DNA of 63,847 nucleotides, filler included, from Stramenopiles sp. TOSAG23-2 (taxonomy: Eukaryota), in the NCBI GenBank assembly GCA_900128395.1. It is 11 parts of 11 records of this genome, joined end to end, with 100 filler letters (N's around TTAATTAATTAA, not from the genome) between each part and the next. Parts side by side here need not be neighbours in the genome. Positions count along the whole stretch, not along the records: positions 17,477 to 23,196 come from LT650604.1; 10 more parts are not named here. One strand, written 5' to 3'. The notes under the pieces were generated by a model, which saw only the letters and a list, made by a program, of their open reading frames with translations, was not told where the DNA came from and did no database searches. Position numbers and translations under genes: made by a program. Positions 17,377 through 48,739 of the stretch are shown here, one piece after another (the first letter of the stretch is position 1; each line of letters opens with the position of its first letter).

Positions 17377-17555
17377 NNNNNNNNNNNNNNNNNNNNNNNN
17401 NNNNNNNNNNNNNNNNNNNNTTAATTAATTAANNNNNNNNNNNNNNNNNNNNNNNNNNNNNNNNNNNNNNNNNNNNTGCACAGATATTGTGCACCGTTTC
17501 TACATTTTGCAAAATTTTGAAGTACCAGATATCATACGAGTAGTAGGATAGAATT

Positions 17556-17667
17556 AATTATTCTTGAGATTGAGTATTGAGCATATATTGGTTAAAATCT
17601 AAGTTATAATATTTTTACACTTCTCGTGTTAAAGTAATATGCTCAATACTCAATCGCAAGAATAATT
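17556..17667. repeat. Family C foldback with 31-bp inverted arms
   Basis: AATTATTCTTGAGATTGAGTATTGAGCATAT (17556-17586) vs ATATGCTCAATACTCAATCGCAAGAATAATT (17637-17667), one mismatch. Confidence 0.8.
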
Positions 17668-17837
17668 GAGCATATATATACCCTGTATATATTACTTAGC
17701 ACGGGAAGTAAAATTATTACGAATTTGTATATAGCTTATAGATTTTAACCATCCTTTTAAATATGCATACGATATAATATATCATATTAAAATATAATAT
17801 ATAATACATATATATATATGTTGTATATGTTGAACAA

Positions 17838-18100
17838 TCTTTTGAATACTAAATAATTTTTACTACATAAAATTTATAAATCATTTTTGATTTGAGATGT
17901 TAATAAACGGGAGTAAAAGAATTTTATATAACATATGAGTAAGAGAAAAACACATATATGTATATGCATAAGAGTACGACTATACGTACGACGTACAAAA
18001 ACGGGAGTAAAAGAATTTTATATAACATATGAGTAAGAGAAAAACACATATATGTTGTAAAAGAAATTTATATAATATATATGAGTAAGAGAACATTTTA
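17838..18100 (-). repeat. Repeat family A copy 4 with partial tandem reiterations
   Basis: Reverse complement of the family A core; GAGTAAGAGAA sub-unit occurs three times. Confidence 0.85.
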
Positions 18101-18114
18101 TATATATATGTTGT

Positions 18115-21100
18115 TTAATTCATACGCTGCATTTCAACATGATTGCTTCTTTCTCCACCTCTACTACTAGATCCAAATAAAAGTATCAACAATATCAAAT
18201 GCATGACACCAAAATAGATGTATGTATATTGTCGAACTTTTGGACTAAGATGTTGAATTGCCATTTTAAATTCAGAAATTAAAGATCTCATTTCTCGTCT
18301 TTGCTTATCGTTATCTAAATTTTCACCACTGCTGCCATTACTTCTTAAACCAGATTCAATATCAATTGCACGAAAATCACTAATTATTTCATTACTATTA
18401 CTACCACCACCTTCATTACTTTCAACCGCAACGGCTGAACCTAATCGTTTCTTCAATGCATTTGTTTTTTGTAATTCTTCAATCGTTTTCTTTAAGTCTT
18501 CGTGTGACGCTTTTAATAAATCACTTTCACGTTTAAAATCATTTTGTAACGATTTTTTCTCTTGTACATGTTTTGCTCTTAATTCTACTATTGCATTTTC
18601 ATTACTTTGTAACGATTTTTTCTCTAGTACATGTTTTGCTTTCAATTCTACTATTGCATTTTCATTTTTAAGCTTTAACTCGGTCGCAATTCCAGCATGT
18701 TCATCCTCTAATTTACGTATTGCAAGTTGATGGTCATTATGCATATCATTTAGACTCTTTTTATTATCTTCTGCATATGTATCAAATTGCTTCTTATGAT
18801 GCAATACTAATGCATTTGCTTTTTTTAATTTCGTTTCATGTTCATCCTCTAATTTACGTATTGCAAGTTGATGGTCATTATGCATATCATTTAGACTCTT
18901 TTTATTATCTTCTGCATATGTATCAAATTGCTTCTTATGATGCAATACTAATGCATTTGCTTTTTTCAATTTCGTTTCATGTTCATCTTTTATCAATTTC
19001 ATAGCACTTTCATGCGCTTTGATCATATCCTCTTTTTCTTTGGAGTGTTGTTGTTTTAATTTCATTTCTTTGCTATTTTTTAAATGCATGTTAATTATAT
19101 CTTCTTTTTCTTTTGAATGTGCAGTCGCAATATCATCTTTTTCTTGTTGATAAACCGCTATCATCTCTTCTTTTTCTTTCGAAAATGCTTTCAACGTATC
19201 CTTTTTCTCCTTTAAATATTGCTTTTGAACACTTTGAAATTCATTTTGCAAGTCTTCAAAGCGTTTATTTGCTTGATTGTCAGTTTTCGTTTTGTTATTT
19301 GCAATTGTTTCTTCCATTTTTTTTAATTCCAATTCTTGTTTTAATTTCATTTCTTCGCTATTTTTTAAATGTGTGTTAATTATATCTTCTTTTTCTTTTG
19401 AATGTACAGTCGCAATATCATCTTTTTCTTTTTGATAAATCGCTATCATCTCTTCTTTTTCTTTCGAAAATGCTTTCAACGTATCCTTTTTCTCCTTTAA
19501 ATATTGCTTTTGAACACTTTGAAATTCATTTTGCAAGTCTTCAAAGCGTTTATTTGCTTGATTGTCAGTTTTCGTTTTGTTATTTGCAATTGTTTCTTCC
19601 ATTTTTTTTAATTCCAATTCTTGTTTTAATTTCATTTCTTCGCTATTTTTTAAATGTGTGTTAATTATATCTTCTTTTTCTTTTGAATGTGCAGTCGCAA
19701 TATCATCTTTTTCTTTTTGATAAACCGCTATCATCTCTTCTTTTTCTTTCGAAAATGCTTTCAACGTATCCTTTTTCTCCTTTAAATATTGCTTTTGAAC
19801 ACTTTGAAATTCATTTTGCAAGTCTTCAAAGCGTTTATTTGCTTGATTGTCAGTTTTCGTTTTGTTATTTGCAATTGTTTCTTCCATTTTTTTTAATTCC
19901 AATTCTTGTTTTAATTTCATTTCTTCGCTATTTTTTAAATGTGTGTTAATTATATCTTCTTTTTCTTTTGAATGTACAGTCGCAATATCATCTTTTTCTT
20001 TTGAATGTACAATCGCAATATCATCTTTTTCTTTTTGATAAACAGCTATCATCTCTTCTTTTTCTTTCGAAAATACTTTCAACATATCCTTTTTCTCTTT
20101 TAAATATTGCTTTTGAACACTTTGAAATTCATTTTGCAAGTCTTCAAAGCGTTTATTGGCTACATTGTCCATTTCTATTGTTTTCGTAGCAAATTTTTTC
20201 TCCATTTTTTTTAATTCCAATTCTTGTTTTAATTTCATTTCCTCACTATTTGCGACTAATTTTTCTTTCATTTTGAGATCATCAATGTGAATAGTGATTT
20301 GTTTTTCCAATTCTACATTTTTTGATTTCAACGTTTCAATTTTCTGATTTAGTTCATTAATTTTTTCTTCATTCTCGTTACCACTACCACTAGTACTACT
20401 ACTACTATTATTCAGCTCCTCCTCTTCTAATTTCTCCTTTGATTTTATTAATTCTTCATTTTTCGTTTCTAGCTCTTTTATTTTGTTCATCCATTCAGTT
20501 AATTTCTGTTGTGCCATATTTTCATTCATTCGTAATTCTGAAATTGTATTTTCATATTCCAACATCGATGCCTTCATTTTTTCTTCTTGCTCTTTTTTAA
20601 TCGAAATTTCTAAATGTTTTATTTCTTCTTTGTGCTTGGTTTTTAACGAATGTATTACTTTCTTATATTTATCTTGCGTTTTTTTAAGCACTTCTTTTGC
20701 TTTGACTTTTATACCTTTGATTGAATCAGAAGAGGAAGCATTATTTTTTATTTTCACCTCGTATTCATTCATTTTTACCTCGTATTTAGTAATTTCCCCC
20801 TCGTATTTGGTAATTTCCCCTTCACATTCATTAATTTTCACCTCTTGTTGTTGTTTTACGATTTCCAATTCTTGTACTTGTGTTTTAAGTTTTTCATTTT
20901 CTTCCTTGAATTGAATTGTATCCTCCTTTAAACGATCCATTTCATCGCCAGTATCATTAATTTTACCCTTGCATTTAATAATTTCCCCTTCACATTCATT
21001 AATTTTCACCTCTTGTTGTTGTTTTACGATTTCCAATTCTTGTACTTGTGTTTTAAGTTTTTCATTTTCTTCCTTGAATTGAATTGTATCCTCCTTTAAA

Positions 21101-21759
21101 CGATCCATTTCTTCTTGATTATTATTATTATTATTACTCCCATCTTTCTTTTTCTGTAACCTAATGACAGCCGCCGCATCTTCTTTTGCACGTTTAGCAC
21201 GTTCCAATGCTTTTTTCTTTTTCTTTTCCAGTGAAATGATTTCATGTTTTTGCTTTTCACATAAAATCCTACTTTCTTCTAAATCTTTTTCCAATAAAGT
21301 AGCCAAGTTACTTTTTTGCAATAATTCTTCTTGAAGTGTTGCAATTTGTTTCATTTGATCGTCACTAGCGTTATTATTATTCGTATCATTATCTTCAGGC
21401 CAACTTGGAATATCATCCCCATCGGTATTTTGTTGTTGTGGTTGTTGTTTCTTCTGTTGAGATAATACTAATTTCAAATCTTCCATTTCTTTTGTTTGTT
21501 GATGTATTAAAGTTTTTAACGATTCGTTTTCTTCTTTTAATAATTTTACTACATATTCACGTGGTGAAGTTATGTCATTATGTTCCCCTAAATTTGAATT
21601 CTGGGTTTTAGGTGAATCATCGTCCATATCTTGTTGTTGTGGTGTTAAAAAATCAGCTGCTTGTTCATCCGCTTCATTTAATAAATCTACAACTGAATTT
21701 TTTAACGGAGTGGCATAATCCGTCACCGTTTCAGTTAATGAATTCCACAATGATGCCAT
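18115..21759 (-). CDS. Long coiled-coil protein with C-terminal TM anchor (golgin-like)
   Basis: E/K-rich heptads; in-frame tandem repeats with 285-, 174- and 123-bp periods; tail anchor YIYFGVMHLILLILLF resembles golgin-84/CASP-type Y...H TM segments. Confidence 0.75.
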   Translation of the reverse strand: MASLWNSLTETVTDYATPLKNSVVDLLNEADEQAADFLTPQQQDMDDDSPKTQNSNLGEHNDITSPREYVVKLLKEENESLKTLIHQQTKEMEDLKLVLSQQKKQQPQQQNTDGDDIPSWPEDNDTNNNNASDDQMKQIATLQEELLQKSNLATLLEKDLEESRILCEKQKHEIISLEKKKKKALERAKRAKEDAAAVIRLQKKKDGSNNNNNNQEEMDRLKEDTIQFKEENEKLKTQVQELEIVKQQQEVKINECEGEIIKCKGKINDTGDEMDRLKEDTIQFKEENEKLKTQVQELEIVKQQQEVKINECEGEITKYEGEITKYEVKMNEYEVKIKNNASSSDSIKGIKVKAKEVLKKTQDKYKKVIHSLKTKHKEEIKHLEISIKKEQEEKMKASMLEYENTISELRMNENMAQQKLTEWMNKIKELETKNEELIKSKEKLEEEELNNSSSSTSGSGNENEEKINELNQKIETLKSKNVELEKQITIHIDDLKMKEKLVANSEEMKLKQELELKKMEKKFATKTIEMDNVANKRFEDLQNEFQSVQKQYLKEKKDMLKVFSKEKEEMIAVYQKEKDDIAIVHSKEKDDIATVHSKEKEDIINTHLKNSEEMKLKQELELKKMEETIANNKTKTDNQANKRFEDLQNEFQSVQKQYLKEKKDTLKAFSKEKEEMIAVYQKEKDDIATAHSKEKEDIINTHLKNSEEMKLKQELELKKMEETIANNKTKTDNQANKRFEDLQNEFQSVQKQYLKEKKDTLKAFSKEKEEMIAIYQKEKDDIATVHSKEKEDIINTHLKNSEEMKLKQELELKKMEETIANNKTKTDNQANKRFEDLQNEFQSVQKQYLKEKKDTLKAFSKEKEEMIAVYQQEKDDIATAHSKEKEDIINMHLKNSKEMKLKQQHSKEKEDMIKAHESAMKLIKDEHETKLKKANALVLHHKKQFDTYAEDNKKSLNDMHNDHQLAIRKLEDEHETKLKKANALVLHHKKQFDTYAEDNKKSLNDMHNDHQLAIRKLEDEHAGIATELKLKNENAIVELKAKHVLEKKSLQSNENAIVELRAKHVQEKKSLQNDFKRESDLLKASHEDLKKTIEELQKTNALKKRLGSAVAVESNEGGGSNSNEIISDFRAIDIESGLRSNGSSGENLDNDKQRREMRSLISEFKMAIQHLSPKVRQYTYIYFGVMHLILLILLFGSSSRGGERSNHVEMQRMN

Positions 21760-22590
21760 TTTTTGTTTGTTTATTATTTGTTGTGCGGAATGTATGCTAA
21801 AGATTAGTAGGTTATTGGGGTTATTTTATGGGGATTGTGTATATATACAGGGACTTGTACACTTGTATATTTGTGTTGGGTATATGTGGTATGGATGGTA
21901 TATGTATGAATATGCAATTCATTTTTTCTCACATACTAATACTGTTTATGTTATTCAATAATATTTTAATTATAATGTGCATGAATGTGAATATGTGAAA
22001 ACGCTTCTCTTCGGCACTTGCTTCGCACCTTCTTGGGAAAAAAAAAATTTCTGAAATCCATCATACTTTTTTTAAAATATATTAAGTACATATATTTGTA
22101 TACTAATATTCCGATTTTATTTGAACTATTTAGTGTACAAATATCAATATGTATGTAATGTGACGGCAGATATCAAAATTTAAAACGTCGGGTTGGTGAT
22201 TTAATATCGGAATAGCAGGTGTTATAATTCAGTCCTGTGTATATATTATTGCGATAGACATATTTGTACTTAGTAGAATATATATGTTACATAGGAAACA
22301 GATAATACAAATTTTGATCGGAGTATAGAAATTGTTGATGTTAGATGTAATAATTTACCTCCAATTACGGATTAGAGTAGGGAAAGTGATTCTATTTTAC
22401 ACATACAACAATATGGCAATTAAATTATGTCTAGTACAGGTTATACAAACAATACTAACACAATGGCATTGAAAAGGAGAAGAAGGAAAGAGAAGAGTAG
22501 AATTGTTTGTTTCTAAGGTCAGAAAAAGATAAAAAGTTAGTGGAATTAAAAGGTAACATGGAAAAGAAAGAAGGCATTGTAAATGTTTGC

Positions 22591-22605
22591 AAAAAAAAAA
22601 GAAAA
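22591..22605 (-). terminator. Pol III oligo-T terminator of tRNA-Val (also 23030-23044)
   Basis: TTTTCTTTTTTTTTT directly after the acceptor stem on the minus strand. Confidence 0.8.
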
Positions 22606-22678
22606 GGTCACAGTGGGAATCGAACCCACGACCTACTCGGTGTAAACGAGTCGTCATAACCAACTAGACCATGCGACC
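22605..22678 (-). tRNA. trnV-UAC: tRNA-Val(TAC), uninterrupted
   Basis: GGTCGCA TG GTCT AGTTGGTTA TGAC G ACTCG TTTACAC CGAGT AGGTC GTGGG TTCGATT CCCAC TGTGACC: complete cloverleaf with A and B boxes. Confidence 0.95.
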
Positions 22679-23043
22679 AGGTAGAAACTTGTAGAAGCTT
22701 CTTGCATGTTGTTGTTCTTACTGAAATTGGCAAAAAAAGTGTATATATATGTATCTATTGTTTTTTCCTCCTTGAAACACCTTATTCCAGATTTCACCTC
22801 CAATTACGGATTAGAGTAGGGAAAGTGATTCTATTTTACACATACAACAATATGGCAATTAAATTATGTCTAGTACAGGTTATACAAACAATACTAACAC
22901 AATGGCATTGAAAAGGAGAAGAAGGAAAGAGAAGAGTAGAATTGTTTGTTTCTAAGGTCAGAAAAAGATAAAAAGTTAGTGGAATTAAAAGGTAACATGG
23001 AAAAGAAAGAAGGCATTGTAAATGTTTGCAAAAAAAAAAGAAA

Positions 23044-23188
23044 AGGTCACAGTGGGAATCGAACCCACGACTAGAGATGGAAGAATACCTTGTATGTTAG
23101 TGTATGCTTTTTGGAGCATCGTAATTATTATATGGACGTACCCTACTCGGTGTAAACGAGTCGTCATAACCAACTAGACCATGCGACC
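23044..23188 (-). tRNA. trnV-UAC: tRNA-Val(TAC) interrupted by a 71-nt insertion at position 46/47
   Basis: Same tRNA sequence as 22605-22678, split as ...CGAGTAGG | 71 nt | TCGTGGGTTCG... Confidence 0.9.
23071..23141 (-). other. Spliceosomal-type (GT-AG) intron inside a tRNA gene
   Basis: GTACGTCCATATAATAATTACGATGCTCCAAAAAGCATACACTAACATACAAGGTATTCTTCCATCTCTAG: donor GTACGT, branch ACTAAC, pyrimidine tract, TAG. Exact removal restores the tRNA. Confidence 0.8.
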
Positions 23189-23691
23189 AGGTAGAANNNN
23201 NNNNNNNNNNNNNNNNNNNNNNNNNNNNNNNNNNNNNNNNTTAATTAATTAANNNNNNNNNNNNNNNNNNNNNNNNNNNNNNNNNNNNNNNNNNNNAGCA
23301 TGGAAATTACAATTAGTTGGTAGAAGTATCAGATCATTGTCTTCAGCAAGTAATATTAATTTGAAATCGGATGTTAAAACGTGAAAAAAAAAACACACAC
23401 ACACACAACATCATATTTTGTTCAAAGATTTGTATAAATGGTGGTTATTTACGCAAAAAAAAGAGCATCTCTTTTTAAAGATTAAAAATGAAATGTGAAT
23501 TTTTTTTTACTTCTAATTCGCTTACAAAATTAGAGACACAGAAAAATTATTTTATATGTACGCGTAAAATATTATATATAGAATAATTATTACTCGTACT
23601 CTCGTACAATATAATTTACGAACAATAATACTTCGTAGATATTAGTGCGCATTAATATTATAATTATTATGCGATGATTGTATGCTCTCTT

Positions 23692-40254: not shown

Positions 40255-40740
40255 ATGTTTCGGCCCGTGATAACAGTGTGTTTCAAGACTTAAATAATTT
40301 ACTTGGACTTCCTTTACGAAATAAAAGAAGGAAGCGGCGTTGACATGGCTGCTTTAAAGGCAGTACAAAAAAATCGTTTGGAAAGGGGAGTGAAAAAATT
40401 ATTTTTGTTTTTTGTTTTTTTAAATATATAAAAAATTAGAGTAAAATAAAATGTAAAATAATTATATATTAATTTTGAAAAAAACACAATCATTAGTAGC
40501 AGTATATAATTTCACAAGAGATATTTGTAAAATAATACGCACGCACACACACACAAAAGCACTTTTTTTAACAAAACACACGTTGTGTGTCCAACTTTTT
40601 TAATCCTCCTCTTCCTCATCAGGCAATTTCATATAAAAANNNNNNNNNNNNNNNNNNNNNNNNNNNNNNNNNNNNNNNNNNNNTTAATTAATTAANNNNN
40701 NNNNNNNNNNNNNNNNNNNNNNNNNNNNNNNNNNNNNNNG

Positions 40741-42117
40741 TCGGAACGGAGGAGAAGTAGGAAACTAAAAGAAGAACTTGATCGTGTTACAAGAGATGCA
40801 AAAAATTTTAGTCTACATAGTAAAAATTTTTCATCATCAAAACATCGATCATCACGCAACGATTATTTATCATCTGTGTCTGAAAATACAAGAGCTCATC
40901 GTACACCACCAAGACCAAGAGGTTTAAGGCGTGTTGGTAGTTATGATTCTTTGCAACAAAATATAAATAGTACATTTTCTAACGATCGCATTCAGCGGTT
41001 TAAAAGTAATAGTTTCGATTCGTCCCCAACCAATAAATCTACATCTAGGAAAGCATTTACTTTTGCAAATGGAAACAATAGGCTTGCAAATGCACCCCGT
41101 GTCTCGAAAACAGGTGAAAAATATAAATTATACCCAGATTATTCAAAGAGAAGTCGTACGTCATCATGGGCAACCGGCCAGGGCTCTAGTAATAATAATG
41201 ATAAACATAAATCGACTAAAAGTAAAGCTATGAAAAAAATTGCAAGTTGGAATGAGGAACATAAAAGTGCTAGTCAATTGCGAAAGCAGCGGCAACGGGA
41301 ACAAATAGAAAAGAAATTAAAAGAAAAATTAGGAAGTAAAAAATCCAATATGGAAAAACAATACGAAGTTGGCTTAGAATCACAATATGTATCTCCATTA
41401 TCATGGTCAAAAGCAGAATCAACCGTTGATCGTGGAGACACTATTGTTGTGAACCCTGTATATTATAAATCAAGTGCAATGCCGCCTGGACCATCAATGT
41501 ATGAACGGTATATTCGTTGCTGTGCCTATCAAGAATCTACGTTTGAAACACCATCACCAGTATTAAGTTGGTTGTATTTAGGTGATCGCCATGATGCGCG
41601 AGATCGCGCGACGTTTGAAGATTTAGGTATTAATTATGTAATAAATGCAACTACGGATATAGATAATTATTTTGAAGGTGAAATTATCAATGGACGTCCT
41701 ATGAGATATATGAATGTTGATTTAAATGATGCGGAAGGTGTTGATATTATGTGCCATTTCGCAAAGACAAATAGATTTTTGATGAAATGCAAACGTTTGG
41801 GTGGAAAAGCACTTGTACATTGTCGAGCAGGTGTTTCAAGAAGTACATCTATAACCTGTGCATTTTTAATGTTTAATGAAACATGGCGATTATGTGATTC
41901 AATTGATTATTGTAGAAAAAAACGTTTTATAATTGATCCAAATATTGATTTTAGATTACAATTAGCATTATATGAAATCTTTTTATTTGGTAAATCAACT
42001 GTAAAAGCAAGATTAAGTTGGAAAGAATGGGATTCCTATCGTTTACGTTCATTATTAAATAAACCTGGTGTAGAAGTTTGTTATACTGCTTCACAAAGTC
42101 CTTGTACAATCATGTAG
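40741..42117 (+). CDS. Dual-specificity protein phosphatase, 5' partial
   Basis: LYLG, HCRAGVSRS (CX5R), PNIDF; frame open to the contig start; ends in CTIM. Confidence 0.9.
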   Translation, partial: SERRRSRKLKEELDRVTRDAKNFSLHSKNFSSSKHRSSRNDYLSSVSENTRAHRTPPRPRGLRRVGSYDSLQQNINSTFSNDRIQRFKSNSFDSSPTNKSTSRKAFTFANGNNRLANAPRVSKTGEKYKLYPDYSKRSRTSSWATGQGSSNNNDKHKSTKSKAMKKIASWNEEHKSASQLRKQRQREQIEKKLKEKLGSKKSNMEKQYEVGLESQYVSPLSWSKAESTVDRGDTIVVNPVYYKSSAMPPGPSMYERYIRCCAYQESTFETPSPVLSWLYLGDRHDARDRATFEDLGINYVINATTDIDNYFEGEIINGRPMRYMNVDLNDAEGVDIMCHFAKTNRFLMKCKRLGGKALVHCRAGVSRSTSITCAFLMFNETWRLCDSIDYCRKKRFIIDPNIDFRLQLALYEIFLFGKSTVKARLSWKEWDSYRLRSLLNKPGVEVCYTASQSPCTIM

Positions 42118-42638
42118 TGTGGCGTGTGTACTGTGTAGTTGTTTTTAATTTTTTTACGTAATTAAAAAGTGTTTTTGCACCTCGTGTTTCTCTGGACACC
42201 ATAGATATATACGTTTCCCAGGAAGACTAATAACTCCTTGTGTCATATAATAATATGATACAGTATTATTATTATATGTTCAAGAGACAGAGATGTGTTA
42301 TTATAGCATTTGCAAATACCTGGTACATACAGACATCAGTATCAAGTATCAAGAATACCAGGAATAGCACAGAATAGTGAGAACACATCTTTTTACACAC
42401 AGCATATATCTAAAAAAGCCTGTTTTGCCAAGGCAGGATAGCATGTAAATAGCACACGGATGTAATAATAATTAATTTACCCTCATCATCATCCATTTTA
42501 TCTAGAAGAGTTCCCAGAGTTCGAAGAAGAAATACAATACGTCACACTGAAAAGGTAAAACGTGAAAGTATAAAAACACACACACACAAAAGAGAGAGAT
42601 ACATTTATACAAACAGAATCAAACATAACAACAACAAC

Positions 42639-43538
42639 ATGGGGGATAATGATAAATATGCAAAATTGACACCATACCAAAATACGAAATTAGGTATGTA
42701 TTGTGGATCCCTAGAGGTCATGTTATTACAACCAATTTTATATTTAAAAAATGCTACACAGCAAAGGTTACCTTTAACAATAAACCCACGTTATCTGTAT
42801 CGCGGGTTATCTTCATCTATTGCAAATATGGGAGCATTAACGGCGATCCAATTTCCGTTAACTAGCACAGTAAAAAAGGTCATGTTAGGTGGTAATGTAA
42901 CTAAACGAAAATTAACAGATTTTGAAAAAATATCTGCTAGTTTTACAGGAGGATTCCTGTCTGGGATTGTTTGTACTCCTATCGAACTTGTAATGATACA
43001 ACAACAACGAAATGGAGGTACAATACTTCGAACTCCAAGCCAAATTATTAAAACATATGGTGGTAGTAAATTAATGCGTGGTTTATTGCCTTCTTGTGTC
43101 CGTGAAGGTTTTTGGACATGTGCATATTTAGGAGTCGGCCCTGTGCTATCTTCACGATTACAAAGTGATTATAATTTTAGTTTATGGCAAGCTAAAATTG
43201 GTGGATCTATTATAGGTGGAATATTTGCTGCAACTGTAAGTCATCCAGCTGATACGATTAAAACCTGCATGCAAGGTGATTTAGGAAATGAAACATATAA
43301 AGGTGTAATTGATACTGGAAAACGACTAATTCAACAATCAAAACTTGAAGGTGGATATGGTATGGAACGTTTTTTCAGTGGCTTACATTGGAGAATTGGA
43401 AGGTCTATTCTTTCAATATTTGTTATCATGGAACTCATGGAGCGTATAACACCTGTTTTATATCCCGATGTATTTTTAAGTGATGATGATGATAATTATG
43501 AAAAAAAAGTAAGAAACAATAGAATTTGTAGTGTGTAA
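42639..43538 (+). CDS. Mitochondrial carrier (SLC25 family)
   Basis: Three PX[DE]XX[KR]-like repeats: QPILYLKN, TPIELVMIQQQ, HPADTIKTCMQ. Confidence 0.9.
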   Translation: MGDNDKYAKLTPYQNTKLGMYCGSLEVMLLQPILYLKNATQQRLPLTINPRYLYRGLSSSIANMGALTAIQFPLTSTVKKVMLGGNVTKRKLTDFEKISASFTGGFLSGIVCTPIELVMIQQQRNGGTILRTPSQIIKTYGGSKLMRGLLPSCVREGFWTCAYLGVGPVLSSRLQSDYNFSLWQAKIGGSIIGGIFAATVSHPADTIKTCMQGDLGNETYKGVIDTGKRLIQQSKLEGGYGMERFFSGLHWRIGRSILSIFVIMELMERITPVLYPDVFLSDDDDNYEKKVRNNRICSV

Positions 43539-43648
43539 AATATTGTAAAAATTAAACACGCGACGTAAAAAAATATGTATATTATATATATATATATATA
43601 TATAATATACATATTTTTTTACGTCGCGTGTTTAATTTTTACAATATT

Positions 43649-44548
43649 TTACACACTACAAATTCTATTGTTTCTTACTTTTTTTTCATAATTATCATCA
43701 TCATCACTTAAAAATACATCGGGATATAAAACAGGTGTTATACGCTCCATGAGTTCCATGATAACAAATATTGAAAGAATAGACCTTCCAATTCTCCAAT
43801 GTAAGCCACTGAAAAAACGTTCCATACCATATCCACCTTCAAGTTTTGATTGTTGAATTAGTCGTTTTCCAGTATCAATTACACCTTTATATGTTTCATT
43901 TCCTAAATCACCTTGCATGCAGGTTTTAATCGTATCAGCTGGATGACTTACAGTTGCAGCAAATATTCCACCTATAATAGATCCACCAATTTTAGCTTGC
44001 CATAAACTAAAATTATAATCACTTTGTAATCGTGAAGATAGCACAGGGCCGACTCCTAAATATGCACATGTCCAAAAACCTTCACGGACACAAGAAGGCA
44101 ATAAACCACGCATTAATTTACTACCACCATATGTTTTAATAATTTGGCTTGGAGTTCGAAGTATTGTACCTCCATTTCGTTGTTGTTGTATCATTACAAG
44201 TTCGATAGGAGTACAAACAATCCCAGACAGGAATCCTCCTGTAAAACTAGCAGATATTTTTTCAAAATCTGTTAATTTTCGTTTAGTTACATTACCACCT
44301 AACATGACCTTTTTTACTGTGCTAGTTAACGGAAATTGGATCGCCGTTAATGCTCCCATATTTGCAATAGATGAAGATAACCCGCGATACAGATAACGTG
44401 GGTTTATTGTTAAAGGTAACCTTTGCTGTGTAGCATTTTTTAAATATAAAATTGGTTGTAATAACATGACCTCTAGGGATCCACAATACATACCTAATTT
44501 CGTATTTTGGTATGGTGTCAATTTTGCATATTTATCATTATCCCCCAT
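43649..44548 (-). CDS. Mitochondrial carrier, mirror copy in the palindrome
   Basis: Identical translation to 42639-43538. Confidence 0.6.
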   Translation of the reverse strand: MGDNDKYAKLTPYQNTKLGMYCGSLEVMLLQPILYLKNATQQRLPLTINPRYLYRGLSSSIANMGALTAIQFPLTSTVKKVMLGGNVTKRKLTDFEKISASFTGGFLSGIVCTPIELVMIQQQRNGGTILRTPSQIIKTYGGSKLMRGLLPSCVREGFWTCAYLGVGPVLSSRLQSDYNFSLWQAKIGGSIIGGIFAATVSHPADTIKTCMQGDLGNETYKGVIDTGKRLIQQSKLEGGYGMERFFSGLHWRIGRSILSIFVIMELMERITPVLYPDVFLSDDDDNYEKKVRNNRICSV

Positions 44549-45069
44549 GTTGTTGTTGTTATGTTTGATTCTGTTTGTATAAATGTATCTCTCTCTTTTG
44601 TGTGTGTGTGTTTTTATACTTTCACGTTTTACCTTTTCAGTGTGACGTATTGTATTTCTTCTTCGAACTCTGGGAACTCTTCTAGATAAAATGGATGATG
44701 ATGAGGGTAAATTAATTATTATTACATCCGTGTGCTATTTACATGCTATCCTGCCTTGGCAAAACAGGCTTTTTTAGATATATGCTGTGTGTAAAAAGAT
44801 GTGTTCTCACTATTCTGTGCTATTCCTGGTATTCTTGATACTTGATACTGATGTCTGTATGTACCAGGTATTTGCAAATGCTATAATAACACATCTCTGT
44901 CTCTTGAACATATAATAATAATACTGTATCATATTATTATATGACACAAGGAGTTATTAGTCTTCCTGGGAAACGTATATATCTATGGTGTCCAGAGAAA
45001 CACGAGGTGCAAAAACACTTTTTAATTACGTAAAAAAATTAAAAACAACTACACAGTACACACGCCACA

Positions 45070-46446
45070 CTACATGATTGTACAAGGACTTTGTGAAGCA
45101 GTATAACAAACTTCTACACCAGGTTTATTTAATAATGAACGTAAACGATAGGAATCCCATTCTTTCCAACTTAATCTTGCTTTTACAGTTGATTTACCAA
45201 ATAAAAAGATTTCATATAATGCTAATTGTAATCTAAAATCAATATTTGGATCAATTATAAAACGTTTTTTTCTACAATAATCAATTGAATCACATAATCG
45301 CCATGTTTCATTAAACATTAAAAATGCACAGGTTATAGATGTACTTCTTGAAACACCTGCTCGACAATGTACAAGTGCTTTTCCACCCAAACGTTTGCAT
45401 TTCATCAAAAATCTATTTGTCTTTGCGAAATGGCACATAATATCAACACCTTCCGCATCATTTAAATCAACATTCATATATCTCATAGGACGTCCATTGA
45501 TAATTTCACCTTCAAAATAATTATCTATATCCGTAGTTGCATTTATTACATAATTAATACCTAAATCTTCAAACGTCGCGCGATCTCGCGCATCATGGCG
45601 ATCACCTAAATACAACCAACTTAATACTGGTGATGGTGTTTCAAACGTAGATTCTTGATAGGCACAGCAACGAATATACCGTTCATACATTGATGGTCCA
45701 GGCGGCATTGCACTTGATTTATAATATACAGGGTTCACAACAATAGTGTCTCCACGATCAACGGTTGATTCTGCTTTTGACCATGATAATGGAGATACAT
45801 ATTGTGATTCTAAGCCAACTTCGTATTGTTTTTCCATATTGGATTTTTTACTTCCTAATTTTTCTTTTAATTTCTTTTCTATTTGTTCCCGTTGCCGCTG
45901 CTTTCGCAATTGACTAGCACTTTTATGTTCCTCATTCCAACTTGCAATTTTTTTCATAGCTTTACTTTTAGTCGATTTATGTTTATCATTATTATTACTA
46001 GAGCCCTGGCCGGTTGCCCATGATGACGTACGACTTCTCTTTGAATAATCTGGGTATAATTTATATTTTTCACCTGTTTTCGAGACACGGGGTGCATTTG
46101 CAAGCCTATTGTTTCCATTTGCAAAAGTAAATGCTTTCCTAGATGTAGATTTATTGGTTGGGGACGAATCGAAACTATTACTTTTAAACCGCTGAATGCG
46201 ATCGTTAGAAAATGTACTATTTATATTTTGTTGCAAAGAATCATAACTACCAACACGCCTTAAACCTCTTGGTCTTGGTGGTGTACGATGAGCTCTTGTA
46301 TTTTCAGACACAGATGATAAATAATCGTTGCGTGATGATCGATGTTTTGATGATGAAAAATTTTTACTATGTAGACTAAAATTTTTTGCATCTCTTCTAA
46401 CACGATCAAGTTCTTCTTTTAGTTTCCTACTTCTCCTCCGTTCCGA
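45070..46446 (-). CDS. Dual-specificity phosphatase, mirror copy in the palindrome
   Basis: Identical to 40741-42117 apart from one codon (ACA vs AGA). Confidence 0.6.
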   Translation of the reverse strand, partial: SERRRSRKLKEELDRVRRDAKNFSLHSKNFSSSKHRSSRNDYLSSVSENTRAHRTPPRPRGLRRVGSYDSLQQNINSTFSNDRIQRFKSNSFDSSPTNKSTSRKAFTFANGNNRLANAPRVSKTGEKYKLYPDYSKRSRTSSWATGQGSSNNNDKHKSTKSKAMKKIASWNEEHKSASQLRKQRQREQIEKKLKEKLGSKKSNMEKQYEVGLESQYVSPLSWSKAESTVDRGDTIVVNPVYYKSSAMPPGPSMYERYIRCCAYQESTFETPSPVLSWLYLGDRHDARDRATFEDLGINYVINATTDIDNYFEGEIINGRPMRYMNVDLNDAEGVDIMCHFAKTNRFLMKCKRLGGKALVHCRAGVSRSTSITCAFLMFNETWRLCDSIDYCRKKRFIIDPNIDFRLQLALYEIFLFGKSTVKARLSWKEWDSYRLRSLLNKPGVEVCYTASQSPCTIM

Positions 46447-46794
46447 CNNNNNNNNNNNNNNNNNNNNNNNNNNNNNNNNNNNNNNNNNNNNTTAATTAAT
46501 TAANNNNNNNNNNNNNNNNNNNNNNNNNNNNNNNNNNNNNNNNNNNNTCTCTGGACAGCCCCAATGCACTCTAATGCAGGGGAAATGTTATTAATTTCAT
46601 TATACCGCCAACAACCAGCCAGCCAGCTGGGCCAGCCAGGTATTAATAATGTAGCTATAGTAAAAAAAAGAAGTTATTAAATTGCCCAGAGGGAGGATCG
46701 CAGTGTGTATTTGTTGGTAATACCGTCGTTGTAAACAAAAATTGAATAAAACCATTTGTATAGATTTATTTATCTATATATATATATATATATT

Positions 46795-48739
46795 ATGTCA
46801 TCTAGTAGTAGTAGTAGTAGTAGTAGCGATTCATCGTCATCCTCCTCCTCAAGTGAAGATGAAATGGAAAATGAAAGAGAAATGATATCAACAACAACAA
46901 AATTAGAGAAAGCAAAATCAAATGCAAACCGTACGTTGCCATCTGCACCAAGTGAATATATTGACGAAAGTATGTATACTACAATATTATTGATGTATCA
47001 ATATGTTGAGCCAATGTGGACAAAGAAAGAACATAAATTAGCACGTAAAACGGTCATTGAATTGGCAGCAAAACATCATATTACTGGTCGAGGACGTTGT
47101 GCACGTGAAGGTCTGAACTGTACATTAACTGGCCAAGCACAAAATATAAGGGGTTTTTGTAATGCTTTGCGAAAATGGAATCCTATATTTCTGCAAACAG
47201 ATTTTAAATTTACAGATGGTGTACCGATAGGAAAGCAATTTAAAAGTTTAACAATGAGAAAAGTAGACGAATTAGTGGCTTATAAATTGGAAGGAGAAGC
47301 AGCTCCATCATTAACTCATTCAGCTGGCGTTCATTTAGAAGCTGATAAATATGATAAAATGTTACGGCAATCTGATACAGTTGTAATAGATGTAAGAAAT
47401 GCATATGAAAGTGCTATTGGTCATTTTCAACCACCATCAACAGGGGCAACATTAATTGATCCAAAAATGAGAAATAGTAAAGATTTTGGTAAGTAAATAT
47501 ACAGATACATACACATACACACACATATGTATAAACTTATTACACATAATAAATTGAAGAGATGAAATGTTTTGGCGGGACAAGCCTCTCCTTGGTCGTT
47601 CTTGGAGTGGAAGCAGTCTTGGGTAGAGATTCGGTACAGTGGAACTCTACTTTTTAAGGCCTATTATATAGCGTATGACGTTGGCCCCTGCCAATTCTGA
47701 TCTTTGTTCATGTTGTACACACACACACACACACACACACATACATTTATTCATCAAATACAATGTTTGACTTATTTCTAACTGAATATATATATCTATA
47801 GCACCATGGTTAAATATGCCAGAAACGAAAAAAAAATTAAATGGTAAAAAAGTAATGATGTATTGTACAGGTGGAATTAGGTGTGAACGAGCTACTGCTT
47901 TGTTAAATGATATGACTGCAGTAGATCCAAGTTTTAAAACACAAGGTGTATATGAGCTTCGTGGAGGTGTTGATAGGTATTTAAAAACATTTCCTGATGG
48001 TGGATTATGGAAAGGTAAAAATTATGTATTTGATAGAAGATTAGTACAAGTTCCAGAAAATAAAACGATTGAAAAATTAAATGCTGATATTGAAAGTAAA
48101 TGTGTTGTATGTAGAAAGCTGTGGGATGAATATCGTGGTAAATATAAATGTGCAATGCGTGAATGTGGTGTACCTGTAATTGTTTGTATTGATTGTGTAC
48201 AAGATACGGAAACTCCTTTAAATATTAAGTCATTACAATGCGAACTTTGTAGAGAAAATTATAAAGCTCCACGTGCAAGGCCAAATTTAAAAAGTATTAA
48301 AAAACAAGTATTGAAAAGACAACATCAAGTAGCTTCGTCAAGTAGTAGTAATAATAATAATATGCAATTAAAAAAGAAGAGGAAAACAGATTTTAGTAGT
48401 AGTAATACTGGTAATGTCACTGCAAGAATATTTGTTGGGAAAATGCCATTTATCGTTACAGCAACAGAATTAAAATCTGTATTATTACCAAATGAGAAAA
48501 ATGTTGATAATAAAATTGAAATTATTGAATGGAAAAAAGATTATAAAACTGGAATATTTTATGGTTCAGCATTTGTTAAATTTAAATCAGCAAGTGATGC
48601 ACAGATTGTTTTTGAAACGAATATGGAACAACCTATAATATTAAAAGGAAAAAAATTAAAAATTAATTTAGCACCATTACGAGATGGTGAGATATGGCCG
48701 AAAAAAAATCATACGAATGAAGAAAGACCACCAATGTAA
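46795..48739 (+). CDS. TrhO/TSTD2 (UPF0176) rhodanese-domain protein with C-terminal RRM; exons 46795-47488 and 47802-48739
   Basis: [49 protein letters not shown], then RRM (IFVGKMP...GSAFVKF). Phase-1 intron 47489-47801 (GTAAGT...TTCTAAC...TAG) gives KDF-A-PWLNM in frame. Confidence 0.9.
47555..47710 (+). ncRNA. Candidate intron-encoded structured RNA with box C/D-like ends
   Basis: GC-richer island in an AT/CA-repeat intron; GAGATGA at the 5' end and CTGA at the 3' end; AAGA/TCTT closing pairs; outer stem TTGGCGGG/CCTGCCAA; internal hairpins. Confidence 0.55.

What the first reader, a model, noticed from the sequence alone, without database searches (positions are those of the whole stretch)
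23044..23188. tRNA-Val gene interrupted by a spliceosomal-type intron in the variable loop
Seen: a 71-nt insertion (23071-23141, minus strand) between G46 and U47. It starts GTACGT, has ACTAAC with the branch A 26 nt from the end, and ends TTCTTCCATCTCTAG. GT-AG removal regenerates the intronless tRNA at 22605-22678 exactly. It lies between the A and B boxes and has no T4 run, so Pol III transcription could be preserved. Its layout matches this genome's mRNA intron at 47489-47801 (GTAAGT...CTAAC...TAG). Established: eukaryotic tRNA introns are normally at 37/38 and removed by the TSEN endonuclease; spliceosomal introns in non-mRNA genes are known for fungal U6 snRNA and some ascomycete rRNAs. 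I know of no established case in tRNA. Inference: a tRNA matured by the spliceosome, or a fresh insertion of a mobile intron (introner or reverse splicing) into a Pol III gene.
Basis: partly seen in the sequence, partly recalled or inferred. Interest (0 to 1): 0.92.

Follow-up and report, generated by a model that had tools for sequence, protein, structure and literature searches.

The report
Spliceosome-type introns inside a tRNA gene
A transfer-RNA gene of an uncultured marine microbe is interrupted by one or two short inserts that carry every signal of an ordinary messenger-RNA intron, which I could not find described for any tRNA gene, although it is not yet shown that the cell splices them out.

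Summary
A 71-nt insert (23071-23141, minus strand) splits a tRNA-Val(UAC) gene. Removing it gives the intronless copy at 22605-22678 exactly. It has GTACGT, ACTAAC 26 nt from the end, a pyrimidine tract and TAG. Only 1 of 124,154 71-nt windows here has all three signals, and that one is the insert.

It is not an assembly artefact. A marine metagenome and an RNA library both hold the insert-bearing unit, joined head to tail as a 510-nt repeat.

Two related environmental contigs add more. One has the orthologous, single-copy gene with a 69-nt variant. That variant differs at 6 of 71 aligned columns but still ends in AG at the same junction. The other has the identical insert plus a second, unrelated 64-nt insert (GTATGT..ACTAAC..TAG) in the anticodon stem.

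No bulge-helix-bulge motif fits. Nine literature searches found no precedent.

Best reading (0.55): true spliceosomal-type introns, removed by the spliceosome from a functional gene. Splicing itself is not shown. The main rival is inert insertions in dead copies (0.25). The "fresh insertion" idea is not supported, because the insert predates the divergence of these lineages.

The parts
23044..23188 (-). Interrupted tRNA-Val(UAC) gene: 47-nt 5' exon, 71-nt insert, 27-nt 3' exon
   Evidence: Rfam tRNA model 50.0 bits, full length. ARAGORN does not call it. Removing the insert gives the intronless gene exactly.
23142..23188 (-). 5' exon: acceptor 5' strand, D arm with the A box, anticodon arm with anticodon UAC, first part of the variable loop
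   Evidence: Identical to 22632-22678.
23071..23141 (-). Insert B: 71-nt spliceosomal-type intron in the variable loop
   Evidence: All three signals are present, found in 1 of 124,154 windows. Also present in metagenome run X5, RNA-library run X17, L003 (69-nt variant) and L005 (identical).
23136..23141 (-). 5' splice-site motif GTACGT
   Evidence: Read directly. Unchanged in L003, L005 and X17.
23096..23101 (-). Branch-site motif ACTAAC; branch A at 23097, 26 nt from the insert's 3' end
   Evidence: Read directly. Unchanged in L003 and L005.
23071..23085 (-). Pyrimidine-rich tract and 3' splice site, TTCTTCCATCTCTAG
   Evidence: Read directly. Variable in relatives: C>A at insert position 63 in X17 and L003, and a 2-nt shorter end in L003. 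AG is kept at the same junction.
23044..23070 (-). 3' exon: end of the variable loop, T arm with the B box, acceptor 3' strand
   Evidence: Identical to 22605-22631.
23030..23043 (-). T-rich run (T3 C T10, directly after a T at the gene's last base): a terminator of the RNA polymerase III type
   Evidence: Read directly. Conserved in L003 and L005. Its function is inferred.
22605..22678 (-). Intronless tRNA-Val(UAC) gene
   Evidence: ARAGORN. Rfam 66.3 bits.
22687..23196 (-). One full 510-nt unit of a head-to-tail array: 106-nt spacer, 8 nt, interrupted tRNA, 251 nt downstream
   Evidence: The joint 23196->22687 is carried by contigs of X1, X5 and X17. The X5 contig of 540 nt equals 510 + 30, a closed cycle that includes the insert.
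22354..22686 (-). Partial intronless unit at the edge of the array, 100% identical to 22793-23196 apart from the insert
   Evidence: the repeat finder families D1 and D3.
23197..23296 (.). Artificial spacer N44-TTAATTAATTAA-N44, a contig boundary
   Evidence: 20 N-runs of 44, making 10 spacers.
47489..47801 (+). The one credible mRNA intron in the window, on a different contig: GTAAGT..TTTCTAAC..TAG, 313 nt
   Evidence: It joins 246 open codons to 311 open codons in a compatible phase. UPF0176_N lies upstream and Rhodanese_C downstream. Sequence.
21797..21936 (-). Candidate 5'-UTR intron of the coiled-coil gene: GTATGT..TACTAAT..TTTAG (TACTAAC in L003). Unverified.
   Evidence: Read. Conserved between L003 and the window. 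No RNA evidence.

Best explanation
The inserts are genuine spliceosomal-type (U2-type, GT-AG) introns sitting inside a nuclear tRNA-Val(UAC) gene family of an uncultured, AT-rich, intron-poor marine eukaryote.

Insert B (71 nt, variable loop, after nucleotide 47) is old. It is shared by the window, two environmental runs and two related contigs. Insert A (64 nt, anticodon stem, after nucleotide 29) is a second, independent case seen in one relative.

I think the interrupted genes are most likely still functional. On this reading the precursor is transcribed, the spliceosome recognises GTAYGT, ACTAAC and YAG, and it removes each insert as a lariat. Removal rebuilds the exact mature tRNA sequence, which RNase P, RNase Z and CCA addition then finish. 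The A and B boxes, the T-run terminator and the lack of T4 in the inserts fit RNA polymerase III. One RNA-library contig runs from -53 to +127 around the gene, which leaves a longer transcript open.

Shown: the sequence anatomy, its occurrence in independent data sets, the absence of a bulge-helix-bulge, and exact restoration of the tRNA on removal. Inferred: transcription, spliceosomal removal, and origin by reverse splicing or intron transposition.
For: 1. Signals beyond chance. Only 1 of 124,154 windows has all three, and the product of the marginals is 5e-7. A second insert of different sequence carries GTATGT, AACTAAC 20 nt from its end, and TAG.

2. Exact restoration. Removing the inserts from the window copy, from L003 and from L005 (both inserts) gives the intronless tRNA letter for letter.

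3. Real in nature. The X5 metagenome contig is a closed 510-nt cycle that includes the insert, at depth 7.8, with no intronless joint. The X17 RNA-library contig of 325 nt carries the insert.

4. Persistence. L003 is the orthologous locus: the same coiled-coil gene lies downstream at 96.7% identity. Its only tRNA copy on that contig carries the insert.

5. Pattern of change between the window and L003. Exons differ at 0 of 74 columns, the insert at 6 of 71 (4 substitutions plus 2 gap columns), and the upstream spacer at 10 of 112. All changes avoid GTACGT and ACTAAC. The reshaped 3' end still puts AG at the same junction.

6. Not endonuclease-type. 0 of 20 registers give a 4-bp central helix, and the positions are 29/30 and 47/48, not 37/38.

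7. No T4 inside any of the 3 precursors. The A box, B box and T-run are intact.

8. Host signals match. The window's mRNA intron uses GTAAGT..CTAAC..TAG with the branch 20 nt from its end.

9. Precedent for spliceosomal introns in non-coding RNA genes: U6, U2, U5, U1 and rRNA (PMC5855946, passages read). That U6 is transcribed by RNA polymerase III comes from a search-listing abstract.
Against: - No datum shows splicing. All runs were contigs, and the spliced form cannot be told from transcripts of intronless copies.
- The only RNA-library contig (X17) carries the insert unspliced and extends past the T-run. It could be contaminating DNA from a multi-copy array.
- RNA run X15 gave nothing on this stretch.
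- The exon-conservation argument is weak. The 250 nt downstream of the gene also show few substitutions between L003 and the window. The contrast of 4 of 69 insert positions against 0 of 74 exon positions is borderline; my hand calculation of a one-sided Fisher test gives about 0.05.
- Intronless copies exist in the window and dominate run X1. The cell may therefore not need the interrupted ones.
- Insert A has no real pyrimidine tract.
- The gene's last base (the discriminator) is T. From recall, A is usual for tRNA-Val.
- The whole genome was not available, so I could not count tRNA-Val(UAC) genes.
Confidence: 0.55

Rival explanations
1. Inert insertions. Spliceosomal introns (or short introner-like elements) were copied into tRNA-Val gene copies by reverse splicing into tRNA transcripts or by another transposition route. 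The interrupted copies are dead or useless members of a multi-copy family, tolerated because intronless copies supply the tRNA.
For: - Intronless copies exist beside the interrupted one and form the only cycle seen in run X1, at depth 77.
- The family is multi-copy, a head-to-tail array, so single copies are dispensable.
- No splicing evidence exists. The X17 contig is unspliced.
- The exon identity could come from recent homogenisation within arrays. The insert plus exons are 0 of 145 different between the window and L005, although the spacer differs at 7 of 110 columns.
Against: - The insert-bearing unit is the form kept in the X5 metagenome contig, and it is the only copy at the orthologous locus in L003.
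- Exons show 0 of 74 changes while the insert between them has changed at 6 of 71 columns.
- Homogenisation by intronless donors would erase the inserts.
- Splice signals and the exact AG junction survive a reshaped 3' end.
- Two hits in one 74-nt gene are hard to explain if such hits are simply lethal to the copy and decay.
Confidence: 0.25
2. The tRNA sequence lies within a longer RNA polymerase II transcript that starts near the TATA-like run about 60-75 nt upstream. The inserts are ordinary introns of that transcript. The tRNA is either released from the spliced RNA by RNase P and RNase Z, or it is only a passenger.
For: - The X17 RNA-library contig covers -53 to +127 around the gene, beyond a normal pre-tRNA on both sides and past the T-run.
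- An ATACATATATATAC run lies at 22741-22754 and is conserved in L003 and L005.
Against: - The contig may be DNA. The tool warns that holes and ends of contigs prove nothing.
- The gene has intact A and B boxes and an immediate T4CT10 run, and the inserts avoid T4. That avoidance matters only for polymerase III.
Confidence: 0.1
3. Non-canonical tRNA introns cut out by the tRNA splicing endonuclease or another protein enzyme, as in Cyanidioschyzon merolae and Archaea. On this reading the GT..AG signals are coincidental.
For: - Introns at many tRNA positions, including an archaeal variable-loop intron, are known for the endonuclease pathway. This rests on the text and reference list of PMC3978253 (passages read).
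Against: - No bulge-helix-bulge: 0 of 20 registers have a 4/4 central helix, and the flanking helices are poor.
- The minimum-free-energy and centroid folds show no such motif.
- The L003 variant changes the 3' junction region.
- The triple signal by chance has a frequency of about 5e-7, and it occurs twice.
Confidence: 0.04
4. Assembly or amplification artefact. On this reading the insert or the duplication was created by whole-genome amplification chimeras or by co-assembly.
For: - The assembly does contain artefact-like contigs. Contig 40740-46447 is a perfect 2,854-nt palindrome.
- The interrupted copy abuts a contig end.
- Run X1 shows only the intronless cycle.
Against: - The insert-bearing unit and the head-to-tail joint occur in an unrelated metagenome (X5) and an RNA library (X17).
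- They also occur in two other assemblies' contigs (L003, L005).
Confidence: 0.02

Closest known systems
mRNA-type (spliceosomal) introns in U6 snRNA genes of fission yeast and other fungi (Tani and Ohshima 1989, 1991, as cited in PMC5855946; passages read)
   Same: A GT..branch..AG intron inside a small, structured non-coding RNA gene. U6 is transcribed by RNA polymerase III (stated in a search-listing abstract). Origin by reverse splicing has been proposed. Some insertions are species-specific.
   Different: The host here is a tRNA, not a component of the spliceosome, so 'proximity to the active site' does not explain it. There are two separate sites in one 74-nt gene, and the gene lies in head-to-tail arrays with presence/absence variation. 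There is no experimental proof of splicing here.
Spliceosomal introns in U1, U2 and U5 snRNA genes of Rhodotorula hasegawae and in rRNA genes of ascomycetes (cited in PMC5855946; passage read)
   Same: Spliceosomal introns in abundant non-coding RNAs, including RNAs not at the catalytic centre (U1, rRNA).
   Different: None of these is a tRNA. The review's list of such host genes does not include tRNA.
Non-canonical (bulge-helix-bulge) tRNA introns of Archaea and Cyanidioschyzon merolae, including a variable-loop intron in Thermofilum pendens (PMC3978253, text and reference list; passages read)
   Same: Introns at tRNA positions other than 37/38, including the variable loop. Removing them restores a standard tRNA.
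   Different: Those depend on a bulge-helix-bulge cut by the splicing endonuclease. No such motif fits here, and spliceosomal signals are present instead.
Short introner-like elements without terminal repeats or target duplications (under 200 nt, algae and fungi; passage in PMC11146597)
   Same: Short size (64-71 nt). No terminal inverted repeats (3 of 12 matches) and no target duplication beyond 1 nt. Marine microbial host. Inserts A and B are faintly alike.
   Different: No multi-copy family was found in the data I could reach. Known introners are described in protein-coding genes.
Group II intron of plastid trnV(UAC) and group I intron of trnL(UAA)
   Same: A tRNA gene (even tRNA-Val UAC) interrupted by a non-endonuclease intron.
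   Different: Those are organellar, hundreds of nucleotides long, self-splicing folds in the anticodon loop. Here the inserts are 64-71 nt with no Rfam intron match, on a nuclear-type contig.

Membership tests
U2-type spliceosomal (GT-AG) intron | 5' splice-site motif GTRNGT at the exact start of the insert | tested here: met
   B has GTACGT (window, L003, L005). A has GTATGT (L005).. Frequency among random 71-nt windows is 0.0016.
U2-type spliceosomal (GT-AG) intron | Branch motif (CTAAC here) with the branch A 10-40 nt upstream of the 3' end | tested here: met
   B has ACTAAC with the A 26 nt from the end. A has ACTAAC with the A 20 nt from the end. The host mRNA intron has CTAAC 20 nt from its end.
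U2-type spliceosomal (GT-AG) intron | Pyrimidine tract and YAG at the exact 3' end | tested here: met
   B ends TTCTTCCATCTCTAG, and the L003 variant ends TTCTTCAATTCAG. A ends in TAG but has a purine-rich stretch before it, so the tract is met for B only.
U2-type spliceosomal (GT-AG) intron | Removal at GT/AG restores an intact product | tested here: met
   String identity to the intronless tRNA for the window copy, L003 and L005.
U2-type spliceosomal (GT-AG) intron | Excision by the spliceosome as a lariat in vivo | not testable with these tools
   Only assembled contigs of runs were available. The one RNA-library contig is unspliced and may be DNA.
tRNA-endonuclease intron (eukaryotic TSEN / archaeal bulge-helix-bulge) | Position 37/38 in the anticodon loop (nuclear eukaryotic rule) | tested here: not met
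   The inserts follow nucleotides 29 and 47 of the 74-nt gene.
tRNA-endonuclease intron (eukaryotic TSEN / archaeal bulge-helix-bulge) | Two 3-nt bulges holding the cut sites, separated by a 4-bp helix. The geometry is as I recall it from the literature. | tested here: not met
   0 of 20 register tests (5 junction settings x 4 bulge offsets) give 4 of 4 pairs in the central helix, and the flanking helices are weak. None appears in the minimum-free-energy or centroid fold.
Introner / introner-like element family | Many near-identical copies at different loci of one genome | tested here: inconclusive
   No other copy in the 63-kb window; the best other match is 12 nt. No contig of X1 or X5 matched the insert alone. 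0 hits in viral contigs and genome contigs. The organism's whole genome was not available.
Introner / introner-like element family | Terminal inverted repeats and target-site duplication (the transposase class) | tested here: not met
   3 of 12 terminal positions are complementary for both A and B. The junction overlap is 1 nt for B and 0 nt for A.
Functional nuclear tRNA gene (RNA polymerase III, internal promoter) | Cloverleaf after removal, A and B boxes, downstream T-run, no internal T4 | tested here: met
   Rfam 66.3 bits for the restored sequence. The boxes and T4CT10 were read. No T4 in any of the 3 precursors.
Functional nuclear tRNA gene (RNA polymerase III, internal promoter) | Expression and aminoacylation | tested here: inconclusive
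   One 325-nt contig from an rRNA-depleted RNA library covers the interrupted gene. A second RNA run gave nothing.
Group I / group II self-splicing intron | Conserved catalytic fold, hundreds of nucleotides | tested here: not met
   The inserts are 64-71 nt. No Rfam intron family matched in the window or in L003/L005.

The most novel reading that the evidence does not exclude
A lineage of abundant marine picoeukaryotes matures a nuclear tRNA with the spliceosome. Short, mobile, transposase-free introns have entered tRNA-Val(UAC) transcripts by reverse splicing at least twice, both times directly in front of the only two TCGT sites of the tRNA. They were fixed in the genome and are now spliced out of the precursor. 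The exact intronless copy, with 100%-identical flanks, next to an interrupted one would then be a precise intron loss through a cDNA of the spliced tRNA. On this reading the boundary between the tRNA-intron and mRNA-intron systems is not absolute. Standard tRNA finders miss such genes, so more may exist.
Probability: 0.45. Interest if true: 0.93.

Novelty: new variant of a known kind. Interest (0 to 1): 0.86.

Why it matters
From recall, textbook accounts assign nuclear tRNA introns to one position (37/38) and one protein enzyme, and assign spliceosomal introns to polymerase II transcripts. The known exceptions are spliceosomal introns in a few snRNA and rRNA genes.

A tRNA gene carrying one or two spliceosomal-type introns, found repeatedly in natural marine populations, would extend those exceptions to the most abundant small RNA class. 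It would also give a compact natural test case for three open questions:
- Can the spliceosome act on polymerase III transcripts in general?
- Do new introns arise by reverse splicing into abundant RNAs?
- How precisely are introns gained and lost? Here both states sit side by side with identical flanks.

There is a practical point as well. ARAGORN missed all three interrupted genes, and the Rfam model missed the two-intron gene. tRNA gene sets of protist genomes may therefore be under-counted.

Tried and rejected
- Whole genome: none is held. I could not census tRNA-Val genes or look for an introner family genome-wide.
- The DNA search with a gapped IUPAC pattern failed on syntax. I replaced it with scripts.
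- The loose regular expression for GTRNGT..CTAAC..YAG was not informative: 26 matches in the window against a mean of 36.2 in shuffles.
- The shared 5' motif GTAYGTCMATA is not enriched: 6 matches against 5.9 expected.
- B-box scan: only the two known copies. The Rfam E-value scan found no further tRNA or snRNA.
- RNA run X15: no contig on the stretch. This says nothing either way.
- The X17 RNA-library contig leaves 22732-22916 uncovered. It is tempting to read that as a transcript boundary, but the tool states that holes prove nothing.
- Scans for the insert core: 0 hits in viral contigs and 0 in genome contigs.
- Metagenome hits L001, L002 and L004 were false. The pattern bridged adjacent tRNA-Val and tRNA-Pro genes of a compact cluster.
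- Taxon: the listing of cluster members found 1 of 6 proteins, without names. The protein-atlas search gave only 'Eukaryota'. I leave the organism unnamed.
- Exon conservation as proof of function was downgraded after one search showed low substitution in the downstream 250 nt too.
- Literature: 9 searches found no tRNA gene with a spliceosomal intron. Subscription-only papers are not covered, and no supplements were consulted.
- Not used: protein structure, complex or homology tools, because the finding contains no protein.
Full report
**What the window is.** The 63,847-base window is not one locus. Twenty N-runs of 44 bases flank ten TTAATTAATTAA spacers, which split it into about eleven contigs of roughly 5.7 kb each. 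GC content is 32.6%. Genes are eukaryotic: DRG GTPase, DNA polymerase epsilon, HIRA and a DEAD-box helicase. They appear as long uninterrupted ORFs, 25 of at least 200 aa. The finding lies on contig 17477-23196. The interrupted tRNA copy starts 8 nt from that contig's end. No whole genome is held for the window.

**The observation.**
- ARAGORN finds one tRNA in the window, tRNA-Val(tac) at 22605-22678 on the minus strand.
- Rfam's tRNA model finds that copy at 66.3 bits. It also finds a second copy at 23044-23188 at 50.0 bits, with a long insertion.
- Deleting 23071-23141 from the second copy gives the first copy exactly.
- The 71-nt insert begins GTACGT. ACTAAC is at positions 41-46, so the branch A is 26 nt from the end. 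The insert ends TTCTTCCATCTCTAG.
- It contains no run of four T.
- It follows nucleotide 47 of the 74-nt gene, in the variable loop between the A and B boxes.
- One G makes the junction ambiguous by one position. Only one of the two registers is GT-AG.
- Among 124,154 71-nt windows of this window (both strands), exactly one has a GTRNGT start, CTAAC with the branch A 10-40 nt from the end, and a YAG end. That one is the insert itself. The product of the marginal frequencies is 5e-7.

**Surroundings.**
- The two copies lie in a direct repeat that is 100% identical over 279 + 55 nt. The spacing is 439 nt without the insert and 510 nt with it.
- Downstream, on the same strand, is a 1,214-aa repetitive coiled-coil ORF with no Pfam match.
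- The one credible mRNA intron in the window is 47489-47801, on another contig. It reads GTAAGT..TTTCTAAC..TAG and joins 246 to 311 open codons in a compatible phase. UPF0176_N lies before it and Rhodanese_C after it.
- The host's own splice signals are therefore of the same strong type as those of the insert.

**Independent data.** A search of public runs with the whole contig listed 24 runs, of which 20 hold part of the contig and 12 hold half or more of its sampled words. These come from 13 studies, mostly marine or seawater metagenomes. I laid four runs on 22687-23196; all four are assembled contigs, not reads.
- In X5 (a marine metagenome), a 540-nt contig at depth 7.8 reads 23040-23196 and then continues at 22687-23069. 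That is a closed cycle of 510 + 30 nt containing the insert. No contig skips the insert.
- In X1 (DNA, 'organism A'), a 469-nt contig at depth 77 is the corresponding 439 + 30 nt cycle without the insert. The insert itself is not covered.
- In X17 (an rRNA-depleted metatranscriptome library), a 325-nt contig at depth 5.2 covers 22917-23196 and then 22687-22731. That spans -53 to +127 around the gene with the insert retained. It carries one change, C>A at insert position 63.
- X15 (RNA) gave nothing.
- The joint 23196->22687 in three runs shows that the unit is repeated head to tail.

So the insert and the repeat are real and occur in nature, and individuals or populations differ in which form dominates. 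No contig matched the insert alone with unlike flanks, so there is no sign of further copies elsewhere. The tool warns that contigs show presence, not absence.

**Relatives.** I scanned metagenome contigs for the two exon flanks separated by any 56-86 bases, without requiring GT or AG. Five loci came back.
- L001, L002 and L004 are false hits. The pattern bridged neighbouring tRNA-Val and tRNA-Pro genes of a compact cluster.
- L003 (2,656 nt) is the orthologous locus. It has the same spacer upstream and the same coiled-coil gene downstream at 96.7% identity. It has a single tRNA copy carrying a 69-nt variant of the insert, with G22>A, C63>A and a 3' end changed from CCATCTCTAG to CAATTCAG. GTACGT, ACTAAC and an AG at the very same junction are kept.
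- L005 (6,460 nt) has a different downstream context. Its gene carries the 71-nt insert unchanged.
- L005 also carries a second insert of 64 nt after nucleotide 29, inside the anticodon stem. It reads GTATGT..AACTAAC..TGTAG, with the branch A 20 nt from the end.
- Removing the inserts from L003 and from L005 gives the window's intronless tRNA exactly.
- ARAGORN calls neither gene. Rfam calls L003 at 50.2 bits but not the two-insert gene.

**How the parts evolve.**

| Comparison | Upstream spacer | Exons | Insert B | Downstream |
|---|---|---|---|---|
| Window vs L003 | 10 of 112 columns differ | 0 of 74 | 6 of 71 (4 substitutions + 2 gap columns) | next 45 nt: 0 differ |
| Window vs L005 | 7 of 110 | 0 of 74 | 0 of 71 | unrelated |

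- The exons are thus more conserved than the insert that splits them. My hand calculation of a one-sided Fisher test (4 of 69 against 0 of 74) gives about 0.05.
- However, the 250 nt downstream also show few substitutions, though many gaps, between L003 and the window. I therefore treat the exon-conservation argument as weak support only.
- The insert predates the split of these lineages. A 'fresh insertion' is not supported.
- The intronless neighbour in the window has flanks 100% identical to those of the interrupted copy. It looks more like a recent precise loss, or a conversion by an intronless copy, than like the ancestral state. This is inference.

**What it is not.**
- A bulge-helix-bulge needs a 4-bp helix between two 3-nt bulges that hold the cut sites. 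Five junction settings times four bulge offsets gave 0 of 20 with 4 of 4 pairs, and the flanking helices were poor.
- The free fold shows none either. The minimum free energy is -37.1 kcal/mol, with a z-score of -1.6.
- The positions (29/30 and 47/48) are not the nuclear 37/38.
- The inserts have no terminal inverted repeats (3 of 12 positions) and no target duplication beyond 1 nt.
- They match no Rfam intron family.
- The assembly does contain an artefact-like contig, a perfect 2,854-nt palindrome at 40740-46447. The insert itself is confirmed in unrelated data, so it is not such an artefact.

**Hints on origin.**
- Inserts A and B are faintly alike. The global alignment score is 11, against 3.0 +/- 3.7 for shuffles, and 10 of 500 shuffles reach it. 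The shared branch motif explains part of this.
- Both inserts sit directly in front of TCGT. The mature tRNA has exactly two TCGT sites, at nucleotides 30 and 48.
- Given the first site, my estimate of the chance that a second random junction shares its downstream 4-mer is about 1 in 72.
- This suggests a target preference. It fits insertion by reverse splicing or by a short transposase-free introner-like element (see the passage in PMC11146597). It is not proof.

**Mechanism.** I commit to the following, at 0.55. These are spliceosomal-type introns in a still-functional tRNA gene, removed by the spliceosome at GT/AG to give the exact mature sequence.
- RNA polymerase III is favoured. The A and B boxes are intact, a T4CT10 run follows the gene, and none of the 3 precursors contains T4.
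- The -53..+127 RNA-library contig and a conserved TATA-like run 60-75 nt upstream leave a longer transcript open (0.10).
- The main rival is that the interrupted copies are dead members of a multi-copy family (0.25).
- Removal by the endonuclease (0.04) and an artefact (0.02) are unlikely.
- Nothing here shows splicing. The spliced product cannot be told from the product of intronless copies. Only contigs, not reads, could be laid.

**Comparison with what is known.** The closest systems are:
- the mRNA-type introns of U6 snRNA genes, a polymerase III gene (polymerase from a search-listing abstract);
- spliceosomal introns in U1, U2 and U5 snRNA genes and in rRNA genes.

The review whose passages I read lists exactly these hosts and no tRNA (PMC5855946). 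Non-canonical tRNA introns of Archaea and Cyanidioschyzon share the odd positions but depend on the bulge-helix-bulge (PMC3978253, passages read).

Nine full-text searches found no tRNA gene with a spliceosomal intron. Subscription-only literature is not covered, and I consulted no supplements.

I file this as a new variant of a known kind, namely spliceosomal introns in non-coding RNA genes. The host class, a tRNA, would surprise specialists.

**Verdict.** Interest is 0.86.

Noticed in passing
window 40740-46447: This whole 5,708-nt contig is a perfect palindrome: two 2,854-nt arms, 100% complementary, with 0 nt between them. It duplicates two ORF pairs in mirror image. It looks like an amplification or assembly chimera. 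The Rfam microRNA-like hits at 43546-43641 are just its AT-rich centre.
   Followed up: partly
window 1-63847: The window is a concatenation of about 11 contigs of 5.70-5.73 kb in descending size, joined by N44-TTAATTAATTAA-N44 spacers. Features on different contigs are not neighbours in the genome.
   Followed up: yes
L005 662-725 (minus strand) and window 23071-23141: Both inserts sit immediately 5' of TCGT. These are the only two TCGT sites in the 74-nt tRNA (nucleotides 30 and 48). This may reflect a target-site preference of the insertion process.
   Followed up: partly
L001 1-467 (also L002, L004): A compact cluster of five tRNA genes (Arg-tct, Val-tac, Pro-tgg, Ala-tgc, Thr-tgt) within 467 nt. 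By eye, most of its tRNA-Val D arm, anticodon arm and variable-loop start matches the eukaryote's tRNA-Val, while the acceptor and T stems differ. The source organism (virus, bacterium or organelle) was not determined.
   Followed up: no
window 21797-21936 (minus strand): Candidate 5'-UTR intron of the coiled-coil gene: GTATGT..TACTAAT..TTTAG, ending 37 nt before the ATG. L003 has TACTAAC at the same place. No RNA evidence.
   Followed up: partly
window 18115-21759 (minus strand): A 1,214-aa ORF made largely of long near-identical coding repeats, for example a 168-nt tandem pair at 20790-21125. By eye it is glutamate- and lysine-rich and ends in a hydrophobic tail. It has no Pfam match.
   Followed up: no
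L003 versus L005: The gene upstream of the tRNA in L003 (2030-2656, plus strand) is 98.9% identical to L005 3265-4059 but lies in the opposite relative orientation and further away. The tRNA locus has been rearranged or duplicated between these two assemblies.
   Followed up: partly
window 22741-22754 (minus strand): An ATACATATATATAC run 60-75 nt upstream of each tRNA copy is conserved in L003 and L005. The RNA-library contig of run X17 begins about 10-20 nt downstream of it.
   Followed up: no
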